From Patescibacteria group bacterium (lineage in GTDB: Bacteria > Patescibacteriota > Patescibacteriia > UBA2591 > JABMQE01): a DNA stretch of 64,000 bases. The notes under the pieces were generated by a model. It ran no database searches and was not told the DNA's origin. It was given only the letters and a program-made list of their open reading frames with translations. Below are positions 128 to 54,832 of this stretch, piece by piece (within the stretch, counting starts at the first letter, position 1; every line of letters begins with the position of its first letter). The stretch spans positions 997 to 64,996 of the forward strand of contig JAHIMF010000005.1 of assembly GCA_018896645.1 (NCBI GenBank). The letters are read 5' to 3'. A program made the translations under genes and the position numbers.

Positions 128-2806
128 ATGAAGAAGAACATCGTTATAATCGGCTCTGGTTACGTTGGCACAGTCGTTGGCGCTTGTTTAGCTAAACTTG
201 ATCATTCGGTGACTTGTGTTGATAAAGACAGGAAAAAGATTACTAAACTTAAAAAAGGTTTTTCGCCTATTTATGAACCCGGTCTTGAAGAATTGCTTCG
301 GGCGAATTTGTATCAAGGCCGTTTGCATTTTACGACTTCTCTTCCCGATGCTCTAAAAAGCGCGGAAGTTATTTTTATTGCCGTTGGCACTCCATCTAAA
401 CCAGATGGGTCTTGTGAGATGAAATATGTTTGGCAAGTGGCGCATGAGATTGGTCGGCATCTTGATCACTATGCTGTCATTGTAGATAAAAGTACGGTGC
501 CAGTAGGAACAGCTGGGCGGGTTAGAAAAATTATAGAAAGTTATAAAAAAACCGAGTTTGATATAGTTTCTAATCCGGAATTCCAGCGCGAGGGTTCAAG
601 TATCAAGGATTTTTTAGGGCCGGACAGAATTGTGCTCGGAGCTGATTCTCCTAAAGCCAAAAGAATAATGCGCCAAGTTTATAAAAAAATAAAAGCTCCA
701 AAACTAATAATGGATATAGCTTCGGCCGAAATGGTTAAATACGCAGCCAATGCATTTTTAGCCACAAAAATTTCCTACATAAACGAGATTGCCAATATCT
801 GCGAACATGTGGACGCTGATGTTGATGTGGTGGCAGAGGGAGTAGGCATGGACAGGCGGATTGGCTATAGTTTTATGAAAGCCGGGCTTGGTTATGGCGG
901 TAGTTGTTTGACTGAAAATGAGATTATTATTATAAAAAAAGGAAATCAAATTAAATCGATCAAAATCAAAGATCTATTTAATCAAAAATATATAAAGTCA
1001 GATGTGTTGAGTTTTGACATTAATAAGAGAAAGGTTTTGTTCAGACCGATTATCAATATAACTAAAAGAAAATATAAGGGCGATATAGTGTTCATAAAAT
1101 CACGAATGAATAAGATGCTCTCTTGTACTGAAGATCATCCTTTCATTTCTTATGAAGATAGTAGGTTTAAATTGAAGTTGGCAAAAGATTTGTTGTTGAC
1201 TGATAGACTACCTTGTTTTACATCCATGCCTTATATTACAAAAGGGTCTGTAATTGATGTTATATCTATTTTGCCAAAGGATAAATTTGATTATAAAAAA
1301 GTAAGAGTTAGGCCAGTTGGTAAACAGTTTTTAGATGTAAAAGAAAGATTAAGTTCATTTAAAGCTTCCAGACTCAGGGACATCTTGCGCTCAAATTGTA
1401 TGAATCTCGAAGAATTTCTAAAGACTGAAATGAAAACAAAAGATAAAATTTCAAGAAAAGATCTGGTTCTTTTTACTTCAAGGGGCAAGACAACTTATTG
1501 CCCAGCGGTTATTAAAATTGATAATGACTTTTGTCGACTCTTGGGTTATTACATCAGTGAGGGGAATATTCATTATGAGAAAAATTTGAGAGGAACACGA
1601 GCGAGAATAAATATACATTTTAATTCAAATGAAAAAGAATACATTAATGATTTAACAAATATCTTTAATAAATATTCACTTAAATTTGGCTTGCGGGGTA
1701 GAAAAGACATCCCAACTAAATCTTTTTATTTTTCTTCAATTATTTGGGCTTATTTACTAAATAATCATTTAGGCTGTGGAAAGGATTCATATAGCGCGGA
1801 TGTACCTGATATGATTTTTTCCTTAGATAAAGATAAAAAGGCGGAGTTCCTCCGAGGATTATTTAGGGGCGATGGACATGTTGCTTTCCCAAAAGGCACT
1901 AATTCTGTTGTCTATGATTATGGATCAATAAGCTATAGTTTAACTCATAAGTGTATTTTGCTCTTTAATTCAATTGGCATTGTCCCGAGTTATAAGACTT
2001 CGATTTCGAAAAAATCAAGTGATTATGCTCATTTTTTTAGGGTTTCTACTAAAAAACAGATAGAAGCCCTGAGTAATTTTAAAGACAAAAAAACGCAAAG
2101 GAAGATTAATCAGGTATTAAGTAATTGCAAGGACATTAAATCAGTTGGATTTAAGCGAGTTAATTCTGATTTCTGTGCTGTTGAGATTAAAGAATTGAAG
2201 AAAGAATATAAAGAGGTTGATGTATATTCACTTGAGGTTAAAGATACTCAAACTTTTATAACCAGCCATGGTTTAATAGTCCATAATTGTTTCCCCAAAG
2301 ACGTTAAGGCCTTGCATAATATTGCGTTTCAAGATGGTTATGATTTTAAGTTGCTTAAGAGTGTGATTCGGGTTAATCAGCAACAGCGGGAATTGGTGGC
2401 TAATAAAGTAAAGCGAATGCTTGGTAGAAAACTAAAAGGCAAAACAGTGGCGGTTTTAGGGTTAGCGTTTAAAAATAACACCGATGATGTGCGCGAGTCA
2501 GCCGCTATTGATATTATTAAAATACTGCAAAAATCAAAAATAAAAATTCAAGCATATGACCCGATTGCCATAGAAAACGCTAAAAAAGTCTTGGACCGAA
2601 AAATTAAATATTTTACTAATCCCTACAAAGCAGTGACTGGTGCTGACGCGCTGTTAATAGCTACCGAATGGCCGGAATTTATAGATTTAAATTGGAAAAG
2701 GATTAAAAAATTGATGAAATGTCCGAAAATTGTAGATGGCAGGAATTTATTAGAGAGGGCAGAAACGGAGGGGCTGGGGTTTGAGTATTGTGGAGTAGGT
2801 AAATGA
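128..2806 (+). CDS. ugd: UDP-glucose/UDP-sugar 6-dehydrogenase interrupted by an in-frame intein; extein about 431 aa
   Basis: N-terminal Rossmann motif IIGSGYVGTVVGACLA. The catalytic motif GGSCFPKD is split as GYGGS / C...HN / CFPKD. The C-terminal dimerisation and UDP-binding region is intact (LGLAFKNNTDDVRES...EWPEF). Confidence 0.9.
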   Translation: MKKNIVIIGSGYVGTVVGACLAKLDHSVTCVDKDRKKITKLKKGFSPIYEPGLEELLRANLYQGRLHFTTSLPDALKSAEVIFIAVGTPSKPDGSCEMKYVWQVAHEIGRHLDHYAVIVDKSTVPVGTAGRVRKIIESYKKTEFDIVSNPEFQREGSSIKDFLGPDRIVLGADSPKAKRIMRQVYKKIKAPKLIMDIASAEMVKYAANAFLATKISYINEIANICEHVDADVDVVAEGVGMDRRIGYSFMKAGLGYGGSCLTENEIIIIKKGNQIKSIKIKDLFNQKYIKSDVLSFDINKRKVLFRPIINITKRKYKGDIVFIKSRMNKMLSCTEDHPFISYEDSRFKLKLAKDLLLTDRLPCFTSMPYITKGSVIDVISILPKDKFDYKKVRVRPVGKQFLDVKERLSSFKASRLRDILRSNCMNLEEFLKTEMKTKDKISRKDLVLFTSRGKTTYCPAVIKIDNDFCRLLGYYISEGNIHYEKNLRGTRARINIHFNSNEKEYINDLTNIFNKYSLKFGLRGRKDIPTKSFYFSSIIWAYLLNNHLGCGKDSYSADVPDMIFSLDKDKKAEFLRGLFRGDGHVAFPKGTNSVVYDYGSISYSLTHKCILLFNSIGIVPSYKTSISKKSSDYAHFFRVSTKKQIEALSNFKDKKTQRKINQVLSNCKDIKSVGFKRVNSDFCAVEIKELKKEYKEVDVYSLEVKDTQTFITSHGLIVHNCFPKDVKALHNIAFQDGYDFKLLKSVIRVNQQQRELVANKVKRMLGRKLKGKTVAVLGLAFKNNTDDVRESAAIDIIKILQKSKIKIQAYDPIAIENAKKVLDRKIKYFTNPYKAVTGADALLIATEWPEFIDLNWKRIKKLMKCPKIVDGRNLLERAETEGLGFEYCGVGK
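905..2287 (+). mobile_element. Intein of about 461 aa with a LAGLIDADG homing-endonuclease domain, inserted at the catalytic Cys of Ugd
   Basis: Starts with Cys (CLTENE) immediately after GGS and ends with HN followed by the +1 Cys of CFPKD. Two LAGLIDADG-like blocks are present (LLGYYISEGN and LRGLFRGDGHV). Removing it restores a normal-length Ugd. Confidence 0.8.
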
Positions 2807-2861: not shown

Positions 2862-3902
2862 ATGAATAGTTTAGAAAAGAAATTTAAAACAAGATTGAAA
2901 AAAAACGAATTGATGAAAAATTATACGACTTTTAGAATTGGCGGACCGGCTAAGTATTTTTTGGAAGCCAAGTCGGGTGAGGAATTGGTGGAAGCGGTTG
3001 GGTTAGCAAAGGATGATGGATTAGATTATGCAGTGATTGGAAAAGGCAGTAATATTTTAGTGAGTGATCAGGGATATAATGGTCTTATTATAAAAATGTC
3101 GAATGTCGGACATCGGAAGTTAGATGACGCAAGGTTGCTAGTAGACGCTGGATTAGATTTGAAAAAGTTGTCACAGTTTGCGATGGAGAATGGATTAACT
3201 GGCGTAGAGTGGGCGATGGATGTCCCGGGAACAGTGGGCGGGGCTATAACTATGAATGCGGGTTGCTTTGGACAAGAGATGAAGGATTATGTGACAAAAG
3301 TTAAGTATTTAAATAGCCGAGCTTTGGATATTAAAAAAAGTCAAAACTCGAATATCTCAAATATTGCTCAAATTAACTCTAATAATAAATTTAATAAATT
3401 AATAAAAGGAATAAATAACAAACAATGTGAATTTGGTTACCGGGAGAGTATTTTTAAAAAGCATCCTGAATGGATAGTTTTAGAGGCAGAGCTGAAATTA
3501 AAAAAGGGCGATAAAAAGGATATAAAACAAAAAATCAAAGAACAGTTGAGTCAGCGAAGCCAGAAAATTCCCGGGAAGCCTTCAGCCGGGTCAATATTTA
3601 AAAAATATGAAATTCTTAAAGGTGAAAAGTTAAATGAAAAATTGGAGAGAATTTTGCAAAAAGAACACCCAGAGTTTATTAAAAACAATTATATTCCCGC
3701 AGGCTGGCTAATTGAGGAAGCAGGACTGAAAGGTAAAATAGTCGGAGGCGCACAGATTTCCGAAAAGCACGCCAATTTTATTGTTAACTTAGGTAAAGCA
3801 ACCGCTGAACAGATTGTTATACTTATTGCGATAATTAAACAGAAGGTCAGAAATGAATTGGGTATTCAATTGCAGGAAGAGGTGATGTATTTGGGGTTTT
3901 GA
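2862..3902 (+). CDS. murB: UDP-N-acetylenolpyruvoylglucosamine reductase (MurB) with a low-complexity N/K-rich insertion
   Basis: FAD-binding motifs NYTTFRIGGPAKYF and AVIGKGSNILVSD; C-terminal MurB domain (AGWLIEEAGLKG, GGAQISEKHANFIVN). Confidence 0.85.
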   Translation: MNSLEKKFKTRLKKNELMKNYTTFRIGGPAKYFLEAKSGEELVEAVGLAKDDGLDYAVIGKGSNILVSDQGYNGLIIKMSNVGHRKLDDARLLVDAGLDLKKLSQFAMENGLTGVEWAMDVPGTVGGAITMNAGCFGQEMKDYVTKVKYLNSRALDIKKSQNSNISNIAQINSNNKFNKLIKGINNKQCEFGYRESIFKKHPEWIVLEAELKLKKGDKKDIKQKIKEQLSQRSQKIPGKPSAGSIFKKYEILKGEKLNEKLERILQKEHPEFIKNNYIPAGWLIEEAGLKGKIVGGAQISEKHANFIVNLGKATAEQIVILIAIIKQKVRNELGIQLQEEVMYLGF

Positions 3903-9070: not shown

Positions 9071-10516
9071 ATGAGTAAGATCGCCCGCAACACAACTTAT
9101 TTAACTGCCGCCTATGTCTTTCAAAAAGCCACGGCTTTTGTTTATTTTGCTTTGATTGCCAGGCATTTTGGCGTGGATTTGCTCGGAAAATATACGTTTT
9201 CTGTATTTTTTGTTATGCTTCTCTCAATTTTAATCGATTTGGGTCTCAATCAAGTTTTGACCAGAGAAATTGCCAAATATCCAGAAAAAACTAATGAATA
9301 TTTTGACAATATTTTTAGCTTTAAGATTTTATTGGGCATCGTGGTCTATGGCTTGGCGATTTTCTTAGTGTATGTTTTGGGGTATCCGCAGATTACTAAA
9401 AATTTGGTGATGATCACTGGCGTGATAATGTTTTTCGATGGTTTAACGCAAACCATGCATGCCACTATGCGCGGTCATCAGAATTTAAAATACGAAAGCA
9501 TTGGCACTGTAATTTATCAAACCGTGGAAATTGGAATCGGGGCTTGCGTGCTTCTTTTTCACTGGCCAATTTATGGTTTAGCAATTGCAATTTTGGGTGG
9601 TAGTTTGGGAAATTTTACTTACACGATTTCAAGAATTGTCAACGTTTTTAAAGTAAAAATCGGCATTCTTTTTGAAAAAGCCGTGATTAAAAATTTATTA
9701 CGTTTAGCTGCACCATTTTTTATTGCTGGCGTTTTTATAAAAGTTTATTCTCATATTGATTCTGTACTTTTAACTAAACTGGCCGGCGATGCTGCCATGG
9801 GATTTTACAGCGTACCGTATAAGCTCGTATTTTCATTGCAAGTCTTGCCCATGGCTTTTGGCGCCAGTGTTTATCCGGCTTTTTCGCATTATTGGCTTAA
9901 GTCTCGCGAGCTGCTTAAAAATACTTTTGAAAAATCCTTTTTCTATTTAATGGTCACGGTATTGCCAATAACATTTCGCACTATTGCATTGGCCGATCAA
10001 ATTATTGTCAAAGTGTACAGCAATCAATACGAACCTTCTATTCTCGCTTTGAAAATTTTAATTATCAGCGCTTTTTTTTCATTTTTAACTTTTCCTATTG
10101 GCGCGCTTCTCAATGCTTGCGACCGGCAGAAAACCAATACTCGCAACATTGGAATTGTTATGGTTATTAATATTGTTTTAAATTTAATACTGATACCCCG
10201 CCTTTCTTTTGTCGGCGCTAGTATTGCCGCTTTATGCAGCCAAGTCCTTCTTTTTACGTTGGGCTTGGCCTATGTTTCCGGGATTATTCATTATGACAAA
10301 AAATATTTGGGATGGTCATTTATTAAAATTGTATTAGCGAGTGCTGTAATGGGTGGTTTAGCTTATCTTGTTAAAGATCAGGTTCATGTGGTTTTTAATA
10401 TTGCAATTGCGGGGTTGGTGTATATTGGGATGATTATGGTTAGCGCCACCGTATCAAAAAGTGACATTAAAGAGATGCTCCGTTTGGCGAAATTTAAGAA
10501 AATGGATAAAATTTAG
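9071..10516 (+). CDS. Polysaccharide/O-unit flippase (Wzx-like, MOP superfamily), multi-TM
   Basis: About 12-14 predicted TM helices and a conserved polysaccharide-biosynthesis-protein N-terminus (TYLTAAYVFQKATAFVYFALIARHFG). Adjacent to a glycosyltransferase cluster. Confidence 0.75.
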   Translation: MSKIARNTTYLTAAYVFQKATAFVYFALIARHFGVDLLGKYTFSVFFVMLLSILIDLGLNQVLTREIAKYPEKTNEYFDNIFSFKILLGIVVYGLAIFLVYVLGYPQITKNLVMITGVIMFFDGLTQTMHATMRGHQNLKYESIGTVIYQTVEIGIGACVLLFHWPIYGLAIAILGGSLGNFTYTISRIVNVFKVKIGILFEKAVIKNLLRLAAPFFIAGVFIKVYSHIDSVLLTKLAGDAAMGFYSVPYKLVFSLQVLPMAFGASVYPAFSHYWLKSRELLKNTFEKSFFYLMVTVLPITFRTIALADQIIVKVYSNQYEPSILALKILIISAFFSFLTFPIGALLNACDRQKTNTRNIGIVMVINIVLNLILIPRLSFVGASIAALCSQVLLFTLGLAYVSGIIHYDKKYLGWSFIKIVLASAVMGGLAYLVKDQVHVVFNIAIAGLVYIGMIMVSATVSKSDIKEMLRLAKFKKMDKI

Positions 10517-14991: not shown

Positions 14992-16578
14992 ATGTTTGGA
15001 CAATTTTTTAAGAAAACATTACTTTTTGTTATTTTAGCAGAGCTTTTTTCATTGCTCGCTTTTTTGGTTCTCCAATTCATGCCTTTTGCCTTTTGGATTT
15101 TGGTGGGTTTATTTTTCATAATCTGTCTTTGGAAAATAGAGTATGGGTTATACCTGCTGTTAGCCGAGCTTTTTATTGGCTCCAAAGGTTATTTATTTTT
15201 TTATGAAGTGGGCGGTGTTCTCGTTTCAATTCGAATCGCTCTTTTTTTGGTGTTTATGGCGGTCTGGTTAAGTAAGACACTGATAGCCACGGATTTCATA
15301 CGGATAGCCACAGATCACGGATTTAAACTGACAAAATTCCATATTTTCAATAAAAGAATTATTCCAGCCAAAGGCTGGTCCGCCTCTGGCGGAACTTATT
15401 ACTTATTACTTATTACTTTTATAGTAATCGGATTAGCCAATGGATTACTACGAACTAGTCCATTCAACGATGTCTTTTTTGACTTTAACGCTTGGGTCTA
15501 CTTTGCCTTGTTCATACCATTTTTAGATATTATTAGGTCTCAAAAAGTTATAAATAACATTATCCAGATTTTCATCGCAGCCATTACCTGGATAGCCGTG
15601 AAGACAATAGTGGTATTTTATCTATTTGGTCATCAGTTTTTTAATATCACTCCATTTTACAAATGGCTTCGGGATTCCGGAGTGGGGGAGATAACTTTGA
15701 TGGCTGGTAATTTTTATCGAGTGTTTTTCCAGTCGCAGATTTTTATAATTATTGGCGCGATGTTACTTGTTGGTTTGTTAATTTATAATGTTAGGACTAA
15801 TAAAAGAAATTTATTACTTTATTATCAGCCAAAGGCTGACCAGCCTCTGGGTGGCTTTATTACTTTATTACTTTTTACTTCTATAATCATCAGTTTTGCG
15901 CGAAGTTTTTGGGTGGGCTGGATTGCTGGTTTGGGCCTACTCTTTTTATATTTAATATTGAAGGAAAAATTTTCTTGGCCAATGATTCTTAAAACAGTTG
16001 GAGCATTTTTGGTTTTTCTGATCATTTCGTCAGGAATAATTTTTGGAATCATGAAACTCCCGCCAAAAACAAGCAACAATGCTTCTTTTGCTAGCTTGGT
16101 TGAAAAGCGGGTTTCCACTATTGAAGCCGCTGGTTCAAGCCGAATAAATTTGCTAAAACCGCTTCTGCAAGAAAATTTAAAACATCCAATTTTGGGTGCT
16201 GGTTTTGGCGCCACGGTGACTTACCAAAGCAATGACCCGCGGATTAGAACCGAGCTTAATCCAGAGGGTTGGTATACAACTTATGCTTTTGAATGGGGAT
16301 ATTTGGACATTTGGTTAAAAATAGGGATTATCGGACTGGCTGTATATTTATTATTTATTTTGATGATTATGAAACAAGGACTGAAAAAGTTTAAGGGAAT
16401 TGAGAATAATGGTTTGAATAAGGGAGTGTGTTTAGGATTATTGGCGGGGATGGCTGTTTTACTAGTTATTAATATCTTTAGTCCTTATTTAAATCATCCC
16501 TTGGGGATCGGGTATATTTTGTTGTGCGGGGCGATATTTACATCATTGAAAAGTAAGGTGGACTATTCGGGCGAATAG
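14992..16578 (+). CDS. O-antigen polymerase/ligase-like (Wzy/WaaL family) polytopic membrane protein
   Basis: About 12 TM helices with a large periplasmic loop; sits within the glycosyltransferase cluster. Confidence 0.6.
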   Translation: MFGQFFKKTLLFVILAELFSLLAFLVLQFMPFAFWILVGLFFIICLWKIEYGLYLLLAELFIGSKGYLFFYEVGGVLVSIRIALFLVFMAVWLSKTLIATDFIRIATDHGFKLTKFHIFNKRIIPAKGWSASGGTYYLLLITFIVIGLANGLLRTSPFNDVFFDFNAWVYFALFIPFLDIIRSQKVINNIIQIFIAAITWIAVKTIVVFYLFGHQFFNITPFYKWLRDSGVGEITLMAGNFYRVFFQSQIFIIIGAMLLVGLLIYNVRTNKRNLLLYYQPKADQPLGGFITLLLFTSIIISFARSFWVGWIAGLGLLFLYLILKEKFSWPMILKTVGAFLVFLIISSGIIFGIMKLPPKTSNNASFASLVEKRVSTIEAAGSSRINLLKPLLQENLKHPILGAGFGATVTYQSNDPRIRTELNPEGWYTTYAFEWGYLDIWLKIGIIGLAVYLLFILMIMKQGLKKFKGIENNGLNKGVCLGLLAGMAVLLVINIFSPYLNHPLGIGYILLCGAIFTSLKSKVDYSGE

Positions 16579-32483: not shown

Positions 32484-34409
32484 ATGGACGACCCCTTCAT
32501 CATACAGCACCAAGACAATGTTAAAGACGCTCGTCTTAATCAGTATACTGCTGGGTCAGACGAGGGTAATTTTTATTCTACGGAAAAAGGAACGTTTGAT
32601 TCGTTAAGGATTTCAATTTCCTGGCCGCGGTTAAGAATGTTTTTTATAATTGTGATGTTAGCGCTCTCGGTCCTGGTGCTGCGAGTTTTTTATCTGCAGA
32701 TTATTGAAGGTAATTATTATCGAACTGTAGCCGAAGGCAACCGAATTCGCATTAAACCAATAAAAGCGGTCCGGGGAATAATTTATGACAGGCAAGGAAA
32801 AATATTGGTAAGAAATGTGCCTAATTTTTCTTTGTTTTTTATACCCGGTGACTTGCCAAGAGAAGAAGATGAGTTAACAAAAATTCTAAATACTATTTCC
32901 GATATTTTGGAGTCACCAACCCTATATTTAAGAACTTTACTTGGAGATGTTTCTCCTTATTCATACGAGCCACTTTTAGTAGCTGAAAATATTAGCCATA
33001 GTAAAACCCTTTTATTAGAAATCGAAACCTCTATGATCCCCGGGGTGTTTTTAGAGACAAGAAGTCGAAGGGAGTATTTATTCTCCGATTCTGATTATGG
33101 TTTATCGCACATCCTGGGATATACAGGTAAATTATCGCCTGAAGAATATCAAGAAAGAAAAAATAAGGGTTATCTTCTTAACGATTATATTGGCAAAACA
33201 GGCATTGAATATAATTATGAGTTTTATTTGCGGGGTCAGGATGGAAAAAAGCGGATTGAAGTTGATTTTTTAGGCAAAGAAGAAAAAATTGTTTCTTTTT
33301 CACCTCCAAAAGACGGGCAAAGTCTTGTTTTATCAATAGACTTGGATCTACAGAAAAAAATCTCGGAAATTCTCCAAAAACAGCTGCGCCAAATCAAAAA
33401 GACTAAGGGAGTGGTAATAGTTACTGAAGTCAATTCTGGTGAAATTTTAGCCCTGGTTTCCGTGCCCAGTTATGACAATAATTTATTTGCCAGGGGTATT
33501 TCTAGAGAAAATTATGAAAAATTAATTAATGATGAATCAGAACCATTATTTAATCGGGCCATTGCTGGCGAATATCCTCCAGGCTCTACTATCAAACCAG
33601 TCTTAGCAGCCGCGGCTCTAGAGGAAGAGATTATTAATGAAAATACTACCTTTATAAGCACTGGAGGCATCTGGTTAAGCGAGTGGTTTTTTCCTGATTG
33701 GAAGGCCGGGGGTCATGGCCGCATTAATGTTACCCAGGCGATTGCTGAATCAGTTAACACTTTTTTTTACTATATCGGCGGCGGGCATGAAGAATTTAAA
33801 GGCCTGGGATTAGAAAAAATTAATTATTGGAGCTCGCTGTTTGGTTTTGGTCGGGATACAAAAATCGATTTACCGGGTGAGGGGTCAGGATTTTTACCGA
33901 CGAAACAATGGAAAATGGATACCCGGGAAGAACCCTGGTATATTGGTGACACCTATCATCTCGCAATCGGCCAAGGCGATATTTTAGTCACTCCGATTCA
34001 GGTAGCTAATTTTACTGCCGTGATTGCTAATGATGGGACTCTTTATAGGCCGCATTTACTTAAAAATCTCCTTCATGCAGACAATGAGACGGCGAGTGCT
34101 GTCCAAAATGAAATCTTGCGAACAAATATTGCTCAAAAAAAGAATTTAGAAATTGTAAGACAAGGAATGCGGGGGGCAGTTGTCTATGGTTCATCCCAAT
34201 CTTTGGCTGACCTGCCAATAGCAGTTGCCGGTAAAACCGGCACAGCTCAAGTGGGCGGCGAGAAAGACCCGCATGCCTGGTTTACTGGTTTTGCGCCTTA
34301 TGAAAATCCCGAAATAGCCATCACAATTTTAATAGAGAATGGGGGAGAGGGCAGTCGGGTAGCGGTGCCGATTGCTAAGGAGATTTTACAATATTATTTT
34401 GGACAATGA
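32484..34409 (+). CDS. mrdA: Penicillin-binding protein 2 (elongasome transpeptidase)
   Basis: N-terminal TM and dimerisation domain; transpeptidase motifs STIKP (SxxK), SVN (SxN), KTGTA. Confidence 0.9.
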   Translation: MDDPFIIQHQDNVKDARLNQYTAGSDEGNFYSTEKGTFDSLRISISWPRLRMFFIIVMLALSVLVLRVFYLQIIEGNYYRTVAEGNRIRIKPIKAVRGIIYDRQGKILVRNVPNFSLFFIPGDLPREEDELTKILNTISDILESPTLYLRTLLGDVSPYSYEPLLVAENISHSKTLLLEIETSMIPGVFLETRSRREYLFSDSDYGLSHILGYTGKLSPEEYQERKNKGYLLNDYIGKTGIEYNYEFYLRGQDGKKRIEVDFLGKEEKIVSFSPPKDGQSLVLSIDLDLQKKISEILQKQLRQIKKTKGVVIVTEVNSGEILALVSVPSYDNNLFARGISRENYEKLINDESEPLFNRAIAGEYPPGSTIKPVLAAAALEEEIINENTTFISTGGIWLSEWFFPDWKAGGHGRINVTQAIAESVNTFFYYIGGGHEEFKGLGLEKINYWSSLFGFGRDTKIDLPGEGSGFLPTKQWKMDTREEPWYIGDTYHLAIGQGDILVTPIQVANFTAVIANDGTLYRPHLLKNLLHADNETASAVQNEILRTNIAQKKNLEIVRQGMRGAVVYGSSQSLADLPIAVAGKTGTAQVGGEKDPHAWFTGFAPYENPEIAITILIENGGEGSRVAVPIAKEILQYYFGQ

Positions 34410-50780: not shown

Positions 50781-50910
50781 AAATAATTCCAAAATCCAAA
50801 TTACAAATTATTCCAAATCAAATCCAAACAACAAACCCAAAAAATGAAATTTGACATTTGAGCTTTGAGCTTCATTTGGCATAATTTAAACTTTGAAATA
50901 ATTTGGATTT

Positions 50911-51300
50911 TTAATTAAAGTGCTCCCCCAACACCCCATCCTTCTTAAACTTCTCAATATTTTTGTTAACCTGCTTATAAAACGCCGGGTAGTGTTTGCG
51001 AATAATCAAATGGCCTTTGTAGCGCTGACGATATGGGAGTTTCTGATGATGGGCTATTTCGTGCGCTATCACCCGCAGAATTGAGTTATAGCTTTTTGGT
51101 TTGCGGTGTTTTGGAGTATAAATATCAACGGTAATGGTTTTATTTTTGAGATTAGTGTGCCCGAGGACGAGATTTTTAGCAGACTTGACTCCCCCATTCC
51201 GTCCTTGCATTGGGCGGAATTTTAAGTTTGGGTATTTTAAAATAATACACGCGCGGATGAAAAGGTGAGAGATGAGTTGTTCGTGTTTTGGGTTTAACAT
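50911..51300 (-). CDS. Small HExxH zinc-metallopeptidase-like protein (SprT/YgjP-DUF45-like)
   Basis: IAHEIAHHQKLPYRQRYKGH with downstream His. Confidence 0.45.
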   Translation of the reverse strand: MLNPKHEQLISHLFIRACIILKYPNLKFRPMQGRNGGVKSAKNLVLGHTNLKNKTITVDIYTPKHRKPKSYNSILRVIAHEIAHHQKLPYRQRYKGHLIIRKHYPAFYKQVNKNIEKFKKDGVLGEHFN

Positions 51301-51427
51301 ACGAATAATAATGCGAATGATGCCAATTACCTGCCTTGCCGGCAGGCAGGCGCGAATATGCGAATTTATTATTTTTTTTCACCCCCTATTGCATAATCAG
51401 ATTTTTGGCGAAAGTTGATTAGGCGGC

Positions 51428-54437: not shown

Positions 54438-54760
54438 GGGTTTTCTTAACTCAAATTACAAAATACTGCCAAAGTTTGACATTCTCTGATATTATTATAG
54501 TATAGTTTATTGTTTTAGTAAAATAGATAAGTAGAACGAAAGAACTTGCGGTAGCTATGTGGATAACTTATCTGTGTATGAGACGTTTTGTGCCATATTC
54601 ATAGTATTTTTCATTGATTTAGCATACTCGTTCATTATCAGTAGTCGTTTTGTACTACCCCTGTTTGGAGGCACAAAATTTGGGTAGAATAGAATAAGAA
54701 TAAATTTGCAATTTTTGTCGTGAAATTGTCATTATCTGTTATAGTCAATTTTCACAGAGG

Positions 54761-54832
54761 TGGACCCGACCGGACTTGAACAGGCATAGCACATGTGTCA
54801 AGTATGGCATGTTACCATTACATCACGGGCCC
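54761..54832 (-). tRNA. tRNA-like element (possible divergent tRNA with anticodon GAC, Val, or a pseudogene)
   Basis: Minus strand reads GGGCCCG-TG-ATGT-AATGGTAA-ACAT-...-TTCAAGT-...-CGGGTCC-A. Acceptor stem 7 bp (one G-U), D-arm 4 bp with GG, T-loop TTCAAGT. The anticodon stem has a mismatch and the T-stem has one T-C mismatch. Confidence 0.35.

What the first reader, a model, noticed from the sequence alone, without database searches (positions are those of the whole stretch)
905..2287. Large LAGLIDADG intein inserted at the catalytic cysteine of UDP-sugar 6-dehydrogenase
The Ugd catalytic motif GGSCFPKD is split as GGS | C...(461 aa)...HN | CFPKD. The insert begins with Cys and ends with His-Asn followed by Cys, and it carries two LAGLIDADG-like blocks (LLGYYISEGN, LRGLFRGDGHV). 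The nucleophilic Cys of the host enzyme is the +1 extein residue, so enzyme activity depends on protein splicing. Inteins at the UDP-GD catalytic Cys are known from a few archaea; one in this lineage's polysaccharide gene is worth documenting.
Basis: partly seen in the sequence, partly recalled or inferred. Interest (0 to 1): 0.6.

Follow-up and report, generated by a model that had tools for sequence, protein, structure and literature searches.

The report
Homing-endonuclease intein splitting a CPR sugar dehydrogenase
A self-splicing protein insert (an intein that carries its own DNA-cutting enzyme) sits exactly at the catalytic cysteine of a UDP-glucose dehydrogenase gene in a Patescibacteria (CPR) bacterium; the insert type and site are already well known, and the only mildly new points are the host lineage and its closest relatives being in DPANN archaea.

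Summary
One ORF (window 128..2806, +, 892 aa) encodes a UDP-glucose/nucleotide-sugar dehydrogenase interrupted at nt 905..2287 by a 461-aa insert: GGS | C…HN | CFPKD.

The insert passes curated intein and LAGLIDADG models. It keeps every canonical splicing residue (Cys1, Thr75/His78, His460-Asn461, Cys+1) and both endonuclease acidic residues (Glu219, Asp323). Its predicted fold (pLDDT 90.9) matches PI-PkoII, PI-PfuI and PI-SceI.

Removing it leaves a 1296-nt ORF that aligns without gaps to intein-less orthologues of the same length. These are 77-87% identical; one is a syntenic Candidatus Falkowbacteria gene.

This is the long-known "udp"/UDP-GD intein allele (M. jannaschii, haloarchaea, a few bacteria). 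A scan of GTDB species genomes gave at least 493 related loci, and 77 of the best 80 sit at this same catalytic-Cys site.

Two points are new here:
- The host is a Patescibacteria bacterium whose nearest orthologues lack the intein.
- The intein groups with DPANN-archaeal inteins at 47-57% identity (NJ bootstrap 100), while the extein groups with CPR genes. That argues for horizontal, probably cross-domain, acquisition.

Verdict: a real and ordinary new member of a known kind, of modest interest.

The parts
128..904 (+). N-extein: Ugd residues 1-259 (NAD-binding domain plus the first three quarters of the central domain), ending GLGYGGS.
   Evidence: Pfam UDPG_MGDP_dh_N matches aa 4-183. UDPG_MGDP_dh central matches aa 199-274 and is cut at profile position 77/94. 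This part is 83-86% identical to intein-less orthologues P0172 and P0173.
905..2287 (+). Intein, 461 aa, 53.5 kDa, pI 9.7; in frame with no stop codon; GC 0.303.
905..1219 (+). Hint-domain N-terminal lobe (intein aa 1-105): block A Cys1 (905-907), block B Thr75 (1127-1129) and His78 (1136-1138).
   Evidence: TIGR01445 intein_Nterm matches aa 1-81. The model is beta-rich here. C1 and the T-x-D-H-P block are present in all 30 aligned same-site inteins.
1220..1504 (+). Linker / small helical subdomain (intein aa 106-200) between the Hint lobe and the endonuclease. Its role is unassigned; it may contact DNA.
   Evidence: Predicted helices at 142-149, 154-163 and 168-178, pLDDT mostly above 90. A conserved R..D..R.N.L.L..FL pattern runs across the family. 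No function was tested.
1505..2080 (+). LAGLIDADG homing-endonuclease domain (intein aa about 201-392). Motif 1 LLGYYISEGN is at 1538-1567 with Glu219 (1559-1561). Motif 2 LRGLFRGDGHV is at 1850-1882 with Asp323 (1871-1873).
   Evidence: Pfam LAGLIDADG_3. phmmer to PI-PkoII 2cw7 gives E=8.7e-9 over aa 201-360, with both motifs aligned. Foldseek to I-DmoI gives TMt 0.72. E219 and D323 are invariant in the family.
2138..2287 (+). Hint-domain C-terminal lobe (intein aa about 412-461): block F VYSLEV, and block G ending His460 (2282-2284) and Asn461 (2285-2287).
   Evidence: TIGR01443 intein_Cterm matches aa 439-461. Alignment shown.
2288..2806 (+). C-extein: Ugd residues 260-431 plus the stop codon. 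It starts with Cys+1 (2288-2290), the Cys of GGSCFPKD.
   Evidence: Pfam UDPG_MGDP_dh_C matches aa 775-876 of the precursor. The spliced protein aligns through GGSCFPKD with solved UDP-glucose dehydrogenase 4a7p.

Best explanation
This is a canonical class-1 intein that carries a LAGLIDADG homing endonuclease, inserted in the ugd gene of a Patescibacteria (CPR) bacterium.

**Proposed splicing path (steps inferred from the residues):**
1. The gene is translated as a 101.5-kDa precursor. The dehydrogenase central domain is split, and the motif cysteine is amide-bonded to the intein's last residue.
2. Cys1 performs an N-S acyl shift on the Ser259-Cys1 bond, helped by block B Thr75/His78.
3. The thiol of Cys+1, the enzyme's own nucleophile, takes over the N-extein by trans-thioesterification.
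4. Asn461, helped by His460, cyclises and releases the intein.
5. An S-N shift restores the GGS-CFPKD peptide bond. The product is a 48-kDa, 431-aa UDP-glucose 6-dehydrogenase.

**Fate of the released intein.** The free 53.5-kDa basic intein is most likely a site-specific DNA endonuclease with Glu219 and Asp323 as metal ligands. It would cut intein-less ugd alleles across the GGS/CFPKD codons and be copied in by repair (homing).

**Origin.** The element was acquired horizontally into a native CPR gene, from an intein lineage otherwise seen in DPANN archaea.

**Shown:** the anatomy, motifs, predicted fold, precise excisability, empty-site orthologues, and intein/extein phylogenetic discordance.
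**Inferred:** actual splicing, endonuclease activity, and the direction of transfer.
For: - **Intein boundaries and motifs:**
- **Fold:** AF2 pLDDT 90.9, pTM 0.90. Foldseek top hits are PI-PkoII (E=2.4e-25), the TliVMA intein, PI-PfuI and PI-SceI, followed by I-DmoI for the endonuclease core.
- **Host gene:** the spliced extein scores TIGR03026 481.5 bits (cut-off 189.8) and carries all three Pfam domains intact. It aligns end to end with solved UDP-glucose dehydrogenases (4a7p, 423 bits).
- **Empty-site orthologues:** P0172-P0175 are 431 aa, 78-86% identical and intein-less. The P0173 locus (Candidatus Falkowbacteria) has the same epimerase-ugd-murB order.
- **Trees:** the extein groups with those four intein-less CPR genes (bootstrap 100). 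The intein groups with four archaeal inteins (Nanoarchaeota, Nanobdellota and two 'uncultured archaeon'; bootstrap 100) at 47-57% identity.
- **Assembly:** two separate assemblies carry the identical gene, with 0 mismatches over 128..2806.
- **Literature:** the udp intein allele is documented and described as spanning class and domain boundaries (PMC4071816).
Against: - No experiment exists, so splicing and DNA cleavage are inferred from conserved residues only.
- The nearest intein relative is only 57% identical, so there is no sign of very recent spread and the donor is unsampled.
- The trees are NJ on 30-38 taxa, not ML.
- The archaeal labels are MAG taxonomy taken from record titles.
- The intein's low GC (0.303 against 0.40 for the extein) is not evidence of recent arrival. 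Related inteins are also 4-10 points below their exteins in other hosts.
Confidence: 0.85

Rival explanations
1. The intein still splices but its endonuclease is inactive. It would be an immobile, vertically inherited passenger at a late stage of the homing cycle.
For: No relative closer than 57% identity turned up among about 15 billion proteins or the GTDB species genomes. Degenerate same-site inteins do exist: P0158 is 308 aa and lacks the motif-1 region.
Against: Both LAGLIDADG motifs and the acidic residues E219 and D323 are intact and invariant in the family. The domain is full size and modelled with high confidence. Close orthologues lack the intein, which fits a gain within this small clade rather than ancient fixation.
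Confidence: 0.3
2. The insert does not splice. The gene would be a disrupted, non-functional ugd, or the insert an ordinary domain insertion.
For: Nothing specific. Splicing simply has not been tested.
Against: All splicing residues are present (C1, T75, H78, H460, N461, C+1). The exteins show no decay: they are 77-87% identical and collinear with intein-less orthologues. A 461-codon open frame is kept at 30% GC. Curated intein models are passed.
Confidence: 0.04
3. Splicing is conditional, for example redox-gated through Cys1 and Cys+1, and acts as a post-translational switch on UDP-glucuronate supply for surface polysaccharide.
For: The +1 nucleophile is the enzyme's own motif cysteine. [quoted passage not shown] Polysaccharide genes lie downstream: a flippase-like gene at 9071-10516 and a Wzy_C gene at 14992-16578. 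Redox-controlled inteins are known elsewhere (my own knowledge; not checked here).
Against: Nothing in the sequence indicates regulation. Close orthologues work without the intein. A highly conserved site is sufficient to explain the position, since it favours homing and blocks imprecise loss (established view of intein site preference).
Confidence: 0.07
4. Assembly or binning artefact: an archaeal intein sequence chimerically joined into a CPR gene.
For: The closest intein relatives are archaeal.
Against: Two separate assemblies (contigs of 66,430 and 38,862 bp) have the identical gene. The insertion is exactly in frame at a canonical site, with CPR-like exteins on both sides. The nearest archaeal intein is only 57% identical, so it cannot be a co-assembled contaminant read set.
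Confidence: 0.02

Closest known systems
The 'udp' / UDP-GD intein allele (InBase Mja UDP GD in Methanocaldococcus jannaschii NP_248048.1; haloarchaeal udp inteins; Dictyoglomus and Fervidibacteria copies; Soucy et al. 2014, PMC4071816; Novikova et al. 2016, PMC4760082)
   Same: The host family and the insertion point are the same. Methanococci and Halobacteria loci show GGS|C…HN|CFPKD. The architecture is the same (Hint plus a two-motif LAGLIDADG domain, 450-480 aa), and the sequences are homologous at 29-41% identity.
   Different: The host here is a Patescibacteria (CPR) bacterium. This intein belongs to a subclade otherwise found in DPANN archaea at 47-57% identity, and its closest host orthologues are intein-free.
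PI-PkoII (Thermococcus kodakarensis Pol intein-2, PDB 2cw7), PI-PfuI (1dq3), PI-SceI (1vde)
   Same: All are bifunctional intein plus LAGLIDADG endonuclease folds. 2cw7 is the best structural match (E=2.4e-25, TMq 0.69) and the best sequence match among solved structures (E=8.7e-9).
   Different: They sit in different host proteins (DNA polymerase, RNR, VMA1) and share only 12-15% identity over the structural alignment. Block F has Ser442 here, where PI-PkoII has Asp in the aligned VYDLSV.
Same-site inteins in the GGH|C…HN|CIPxDP branch of the dehydrogenase family (WecC/TviB-like)
   Same: The structural site is the same (the motif Cys) and the inteins are homologous. They make up 29 of the 80 best GTDB loci.
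   Different: The host paralogue is different. Identity to the window intein is 26-36%.

Membership tests
Intein (class 1, Hint-domain protein-splicing element) | Nucleophilic Cys/Ser as the first residue, at the start of the N-terminal splicing region | tested here: met
   Cys1 (nt 905-907). TIGR01445 matches from model position 1 at intein residue 1.
Intein (class 1, Hint-domain protein-splicing element) | Block B T-x-x-H | tested here: met
   Thr75-Glu-Asp-His78. This block is present in all 30 aligned same-site inteins.
Intein (class 1, Hint-domain protein-splicing element) | C-terminal His-Asn followed by a Cys/Ser/Thr +1 extein residue | tested here: met
   His460-Asn461 | Cys (nt 2282-2290). 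TIGR01443 matches aa 698-721 of the precursor, +1 residue included.
Intein (class 1, Hint-domain protein-splicing element) | Hint fold | tested here: met
   On a predicted model only: pLDDT 90.9. The top Foldseek hits are solved inteins 2cw7, 7qsu, 1dq3 and 1vde.
Intein (class 1, Hint-domain protein-splicing element) | In-frame insertion whose removal restores collinearity with intein-less homologues | tested here: met
   The spliced ORF is 1296 nt, the same length as L082 and L083, with an ungapped alignment at 74-78% nt and 77-87% aa identity.
Intein (class 1, Hint-domain protein-splicing element) | Autocatalytic protein splicing | not testable with these tools
   Needs expression of the precursor and detection of the 48-kDa and 53.5-kDa products.
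LAGLIDADG homing endonuclease (two-motif, monomeric) | Two LAGLIDADG motifs, each with a conserved acidic residue near its end | tested here: met
   LLGYYISEG (Glu219) and LRGLFRGDG (Asp323). Pfam LAGLIDADG_3 scores 40.5 bits (cut-off 22.5).
LAGLIDADG homing endonuclease (two-motif, monomeric) | Pseudo-dimeric alpha-beta-beta-alpha-beta-beta-alpha core | tested here: met
   On a predicted model only: Foldseek to I-DmoI gives TMt 0.72, rmsd 3.6-3.7 Å.
LAGLIDADG homing endonuclease (two-motif, monomeric) | Site-specific cleavage of the intein-less allele | not testable with these tools
   Needs an in vitro cleavage assay on the GGS/CFPKD junction DNA.
udp / UDP-GD intein allele | Insertion immediately before the Cys of GGSCFPKD in a UDP-glucose dehydrogenase | tested here: met
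   The junction is the same as in the Methanococci (L043, L058) and Halobacteria (L011-L029) loci.
udp / UDP-GD intein allele | Sequence homology to other inteins at that site | tested here: met
   E-values from 1e-44 to 1e-163 and 27-57% identity over the full length.
UDP-glucose 6-dehydrogenase (host protein) | N-terminal NAD-binding, central and C-terminal UDP-binding domains; nucleotide-sugar dehydrogenase subfamily model | tested here: met
   All three Pfam domains are complete in the spliced protein. TIGR03026 scores 481.5 bits (cut-off 189.8).
UDP-glucose 6-dehydrogenase (host protein) | Equivalog-level assignment (TuaD NF047673, AglM NF041297) | tested here: not met
   TuaD scores 549.6 bits against a cut-off of 700, and AglM 389.7 against 670. 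Substrate specificity therefore rests on the best solved homologues being UDP-glucose dehydrogenases. It was not tested.
UDP-glucose 6-dehydrogenase (host protein) | Catalytic Cys in the GGSCFPKD motif | tested here: met
   The motif is contiguous only after excision. It aligns with GGSCFPKD of 4a7p. That this Cys is the thioester-forming nucleophile is established knowledge (S. pyogenes Cys260, Campbell et al. 2000, cited in PMC9927302).

The most novel reading that the evidence does not exclude
The intein is still mobile and crossed the domain boundary between DPANN archaea and a CPR bacterium. In addition, because splicing uses the dehydrogenase's own catalytic thiol as the +1 nucleophile, it may work as a redox-sensitive gate on UDP-glucuronate production in this organism. 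The probability given is for the regulatory part. Cross-domain acquisition on its own I put at about 0.5.
Probability: 0.07. Interest if true: 0.6.

Novelty: new member of a known kind. Interest (0 to 1): 0.3.

Why it matters
The public record calls this protein only 'nucleotide sugar dehydrogenase' (MBU4331526.1), so the annotation gains a correct intein call and a mature protein length (431 aa, not 892).

It also documents an intein-plus gene next to intein-minus orthologues that are 78-86% identical, in CPR bacteria. The intein's relatives are in DPANN archaea. That makes it a small but clean marker of DNA exchange between bacteria and archaea, both of them lineages with very small cells.

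It shows that the catalytic-Cys site of the nucleotide-sugar dehydrogenase family is invaded far more widely than the registry-era counts suggested (about 10-20 inteins then, hundreds of species now).

It does not change how inteins are understood to work.

Tried and rejected
- **Other copies in the window.** I looked for a second intein, a free-standing LAGLIDADG gene or a second ugd copy, using phmmer and an HMM against all six-frame ORFs of at least 80 aa. None was found.
- **Viral vector.** A scan of IMG/VR found only distant inteins, at most 30% identity over long matches, and none close to this one.
- **Low GC as a sign of recent transfer.** The intein (0.303) is below every long ORF in the window (minimum 0.348). 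I rejected this as evidence because related inteins are also 4-10 points below their exteins in other genomes.
- **Literature.** Searches for 'intein' with 'UDP GD', with 'nucleotide sugar dehydrogenase', and for 'inteins' with 'Patescibacteria' found nothing. The CPR homing-endonuclease paper (PMC11270868) mentions inteins only in passing.
- **Archaeal identity of L002 and L008.** I checked flanking genes. Only a NOL1/NOP2-type methylase next to L002 is mildly suggestive, and the rest are uninformative sugar or phosphatase genes. The archaeal assignment therefore rests on the record titles.
- **First bootstrap run.** It timed out and was redone with a faster distance routine.
- **Whole-window Rfam scan.** It gave no hits. 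This was a filter effect and not an absence of RNA genes.
Full report
**Observation.**
The window holds one long ORF at 128..2806 on the + strand, 892 aa. In its translation GGSC starts at residue 257 and VHNCFPKD at residue 718. The segment from Cys260 to Asn720 is 461 aa and is encoded by nt 905..2287. What remains is 431 aa. Every number in the finding is correct.

**What the insert is.**
- Pfam gives Intein_splicing (E=3e-18, 66.5 bits, cut-off 35.8), spanning intein residues 15-461, and LAGLIDADG_3 (E=3.4e-10, 40.5 bits, cut-off 22.5).
- NCBIfam's intein N-terminal model aligns from its first position to intein residue 1. In the whole precursor the C-terminal model ends on the +1 Cys. Both score above their cut-offs.
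- The canonical class-1 residues are all present: Cys1 (905-907), Thr75 and His78 of block B (1127-1129, 1136-1138), His460-Asn461 (2282-2287) and Cys+1 (2288-2290).
- In an alignment of 30 inteins from the same site, C1, the T-x-D-H-P block, the VYS.E block F and the terminal HN are kept throughout; one sequence has GQ. So are Glu219 in LAGLIDADG motif 1 and Asp323 in motif 2.
- The closest solved protein by sequence is the intein endonuclease PI-PkoII (2cw7, E=8.7e-9), with both motifs aligned.
- An AlphaFold2 model of the intein, built with 18 homologues, has mean pLDDT 90.9 and pTM 0.90.
- Foldseek against the PDB ranks PI-PkoII, the TliVMA intein, PI-PfuI and PI-SceI first (E from 2e-25 to 1e-11). 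I-DmoI follows for the endonuclease core (TMt 0.72).
- The intein is 53.5 kDa and basic (pI 9.7), as expected for a DNA-binding protein.

**What the host is.**
- With the insert removed, the protein has the three UDPG_MGDP_dh domains intact. The central domain goes from 77/94 to 93/94 profile positions.
- It scores 481.5 bits on TIGR03026, the nucleotide-sugar dehydrogenase model (cut-off 189.8).
- It aligns end to end with solved UDP-glucose dehydrogenases (4a7p, 423 bits), straight through GGSCFPKD.
- It does not reach the equivalog cut-offs for TuaD or AglM. 'UDP-glucose' is therefore the most likely substrate but is not proven.
- That the motif Cys is the thioester-forming nucleophile is established enzymology (S. 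pyogenes Cys260; Campbell et al. 2000 and Rocha et al. 2011 are cited in PMC9927302).

**Source and reliability.**
The exact protein is in GenBank twice: MBU4331526.1 on a 66,430-bp contig and MBU4512928.1 on a 38,862-bp contig of GCA_018894455.1. Both are labelled 'nucleotide sugar dehydrogenase [Patescibacteria group bacterium]', with no mention of an intein. The two assemblies are identical across the whole gene. They differ at 14 of 5806 shared positions, all outside it. An assembly chimera is therefore very unlikely. The neighbouring genes are bacterial: murB, infA, rpmJ, rpsM, rpsK, rpsD and rpoA.

**Empty-site orthologues.**
- A search with the spliced extein returned four 431-aa intein-less proteins at 78-86% identity (P0172-P0175; P0173 is from Candidatus Falkowbacteria). 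After them come many Patescibacteria Ugds at 53-59% identity.
- The P0173 locus has the same epimerase-ugd-murB order as the window's contig.
- At the DNA level the spliced window gene and both empty-site genes are all 1296 nt. They align without gaps at 74-78% nt identity, and the junction falls exactly between …GGT AGT and TGT TTC….
- This fixes the intein boundaries independently of any intein model.

**Distribution of the site.**
- Related inteins were found in Ugd-type proteins of Omnitrophota, Thermoplasmatota, Halorubrum, Natronomonas and Nanoarchaeota.
- An exhaustive HMMER search of 1.84 billion cluster representatives gave 1387 hits at E≤1e-3. Dozens of about 900-aa proteins among them carry the same GGS|C…HN|CFPKD junction.
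- A scan of one genome per GTDB species gave at least 493 loci encoding relatives.
- Of the best 80 loci, 48 have the Ugd-type junction, 29 have the same site in the GGH|C…HN|CIPxDP branch of the family, and 3 are in another host.
- Hosts include Halobacteria, Methanococci, Archaeoglobi, Heimdallarchaeota, DPANN groups, Planctomycetes, Omnitrophota, Chloroflexota, Acidobacteria, Aquificales and Gammaproteobacteria.
- The literature already names this the 'udp' allele. It lists M. jannaschii NP_248048.1, other Methanococci, Thermococcus gammatolerans, haloarchaea, Dictyoglomus and a Fervidibacteria genome, and says its diversity spans class and domain boundaries (PMC4071816).
- The kind and the site are therefore known.

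**Origin of this copy.**
- The intein's nearest relatives are 47-57% identical. By record title they come from a Nanoarchaeota MAG (L002, on a 116-kb contig), a Nanobdellota MAG (L008) and two 'uncultured archaeon' MAGs (L003, L005). All other same-site inteins are at most 41% identical, apart from a 1.7-kb contig labelled Planctomycetia at 49% and three unlabelled database hits at 48-52% (P0001, P0014, P0021).
- In an NJ tree the window intein falls inside a clade with those four archaeal inteins, with bootstrap 100.
- In the extein tree the window groups with the four intein-less CPR proteins, also with bootstrap 100, while the exteins of the DPANN genes lie elsewhere.
- Intein and extein identities are uncoupled. 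Exteins of very different hosts are all about 40-55% identical to the window's, whereas inteins range from 27% to 57%.
- The simplest reading is that a native CPR ugd was invaded by an intein from the lineage circulating in DPANN archaea, after the split from the P0172 lineage.
- Four independent precise losses are the less parsimonious alternative.
- Caveats: these are NJ trees with limited sampling, MAG taxonomy is taken at face value, and 57% identity means the direct donor is not sampled.
- No close relative was found on viral contigs.

**Mechanism.**
Shown here are the sequence anatomy, the predicted fold and the comparative data above. The following steps are inferred from them and from established intein chemistry:
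1. Cys1 makes an N-S acyl shift at Ser259-Cys1.
2. The N-extein is transferred to the thiol of Cys+1.
3. Asn461 cyclises, assisted by His460.
4. An S-N shift restores GGSCFPKD.

The precursor has its central domain split by 461 residues, so it should be inactive until spliced. This is an inference. The excised intein would act as a two-motif LAGLIDADG endonuclease on intein-less alleles. I rate splicing competence at about 0.85 and endonuclease activity at about 0.55.

**Rivals.**
- A dead endonuclease in a splicing-competent intein (0.3) cannot be excluded without an assay.
- A non-splicing insertion (0.04) is contradicted by the intact residues and the undecayed exteins.
- Conditional, redox-gated splicing (0.07) has no direct support.
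- An assembly artefact (0.02) is contradicted by two assemblies and by the 57% ceiling on archaeal similarity.

**Verdict.**
The element is a new member of a well-known intein allele. The host lineage (CPR) and the DPANN affinity of the intein give it modest extra interest.

Noticed in passing
window 50,800-51,400 (ORFs on + up to 50780, on - from 51428): Gene orientation flips from + to -, and GC skew changes sign from positive to negative at the same place. This could be a replication terminus or origin-type switch point.
   Followed up: no
window 3429-3488 (inside murB, 2862-3902): The window and the second assembly (L001) differ at 14 of 5806 positions. Thirteen of these are in murB, and 11 of those cluster within 60 nt in an N/S/I-rich stretch. 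It looks like a local hypervariable or recombined patch.
   Followed up: partly
window 54759-54832 (-): The whole-window Rfam gathering scan returned no hits, although ARAGORN finds tRNA-Val(GAC). A local Rfam scan scores it 34.8 bits, above the tRNA gathering score of 29. The miss was a filter effect of the large search.
   Followed up: yes
window 9071-10516, 14992-16578, 32484-34409; L001 1921-2835 (just upstream of the window): Surface-polysaccharide and cell-wall genes surround ugd. An NAD-dependent sugar epimerase/dehydratase lies directly upstream. Downstream are a Polysacc_synt flippase-like gene, a Wzy_C (O-antigen-ligase-like) gene and a PBP2-type transpeptidase.
   Followed up: partly
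L056 (Nitrososphaerales), L072 (Pyrinomonadaceae), L079 (Planctomycetales): Three homologous inteins (about 27-29% identity) sit in a different host protein of about 1240 aa, not in a sugar dehydrogenase. The host was not identified.
   Followed up: no
P0006 (Halorubrum distributum), P0007, P0008 and other database entries: Many public gene calls for intein-bearing ugd genes are truncated. They start at or inside the intein (for example MWGGGSCL…) and are named only 'nucleotide sugar dehydrogenase' or 'UDP binding domain-containing protein'. This points to systematic mis-annotation of the allele.
   Followed up: no
P0158 (739 aa; intein residues 256-563): This is a same-site intein of only 308 aa that lacks the LAGLIDADG motif-1 region. 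It looks like a degenerating endonuclease stage of the same allele.
   Followed up: no
L062, L064, P0065, P0073, P0132, P0153 (same-site inteins): Several same-site inteins end in Gln rather than Asn (HQ, GQ or AQ before the +1 Cys). These are variant C-terminal splicing residues within the allele.
   Followed up: no
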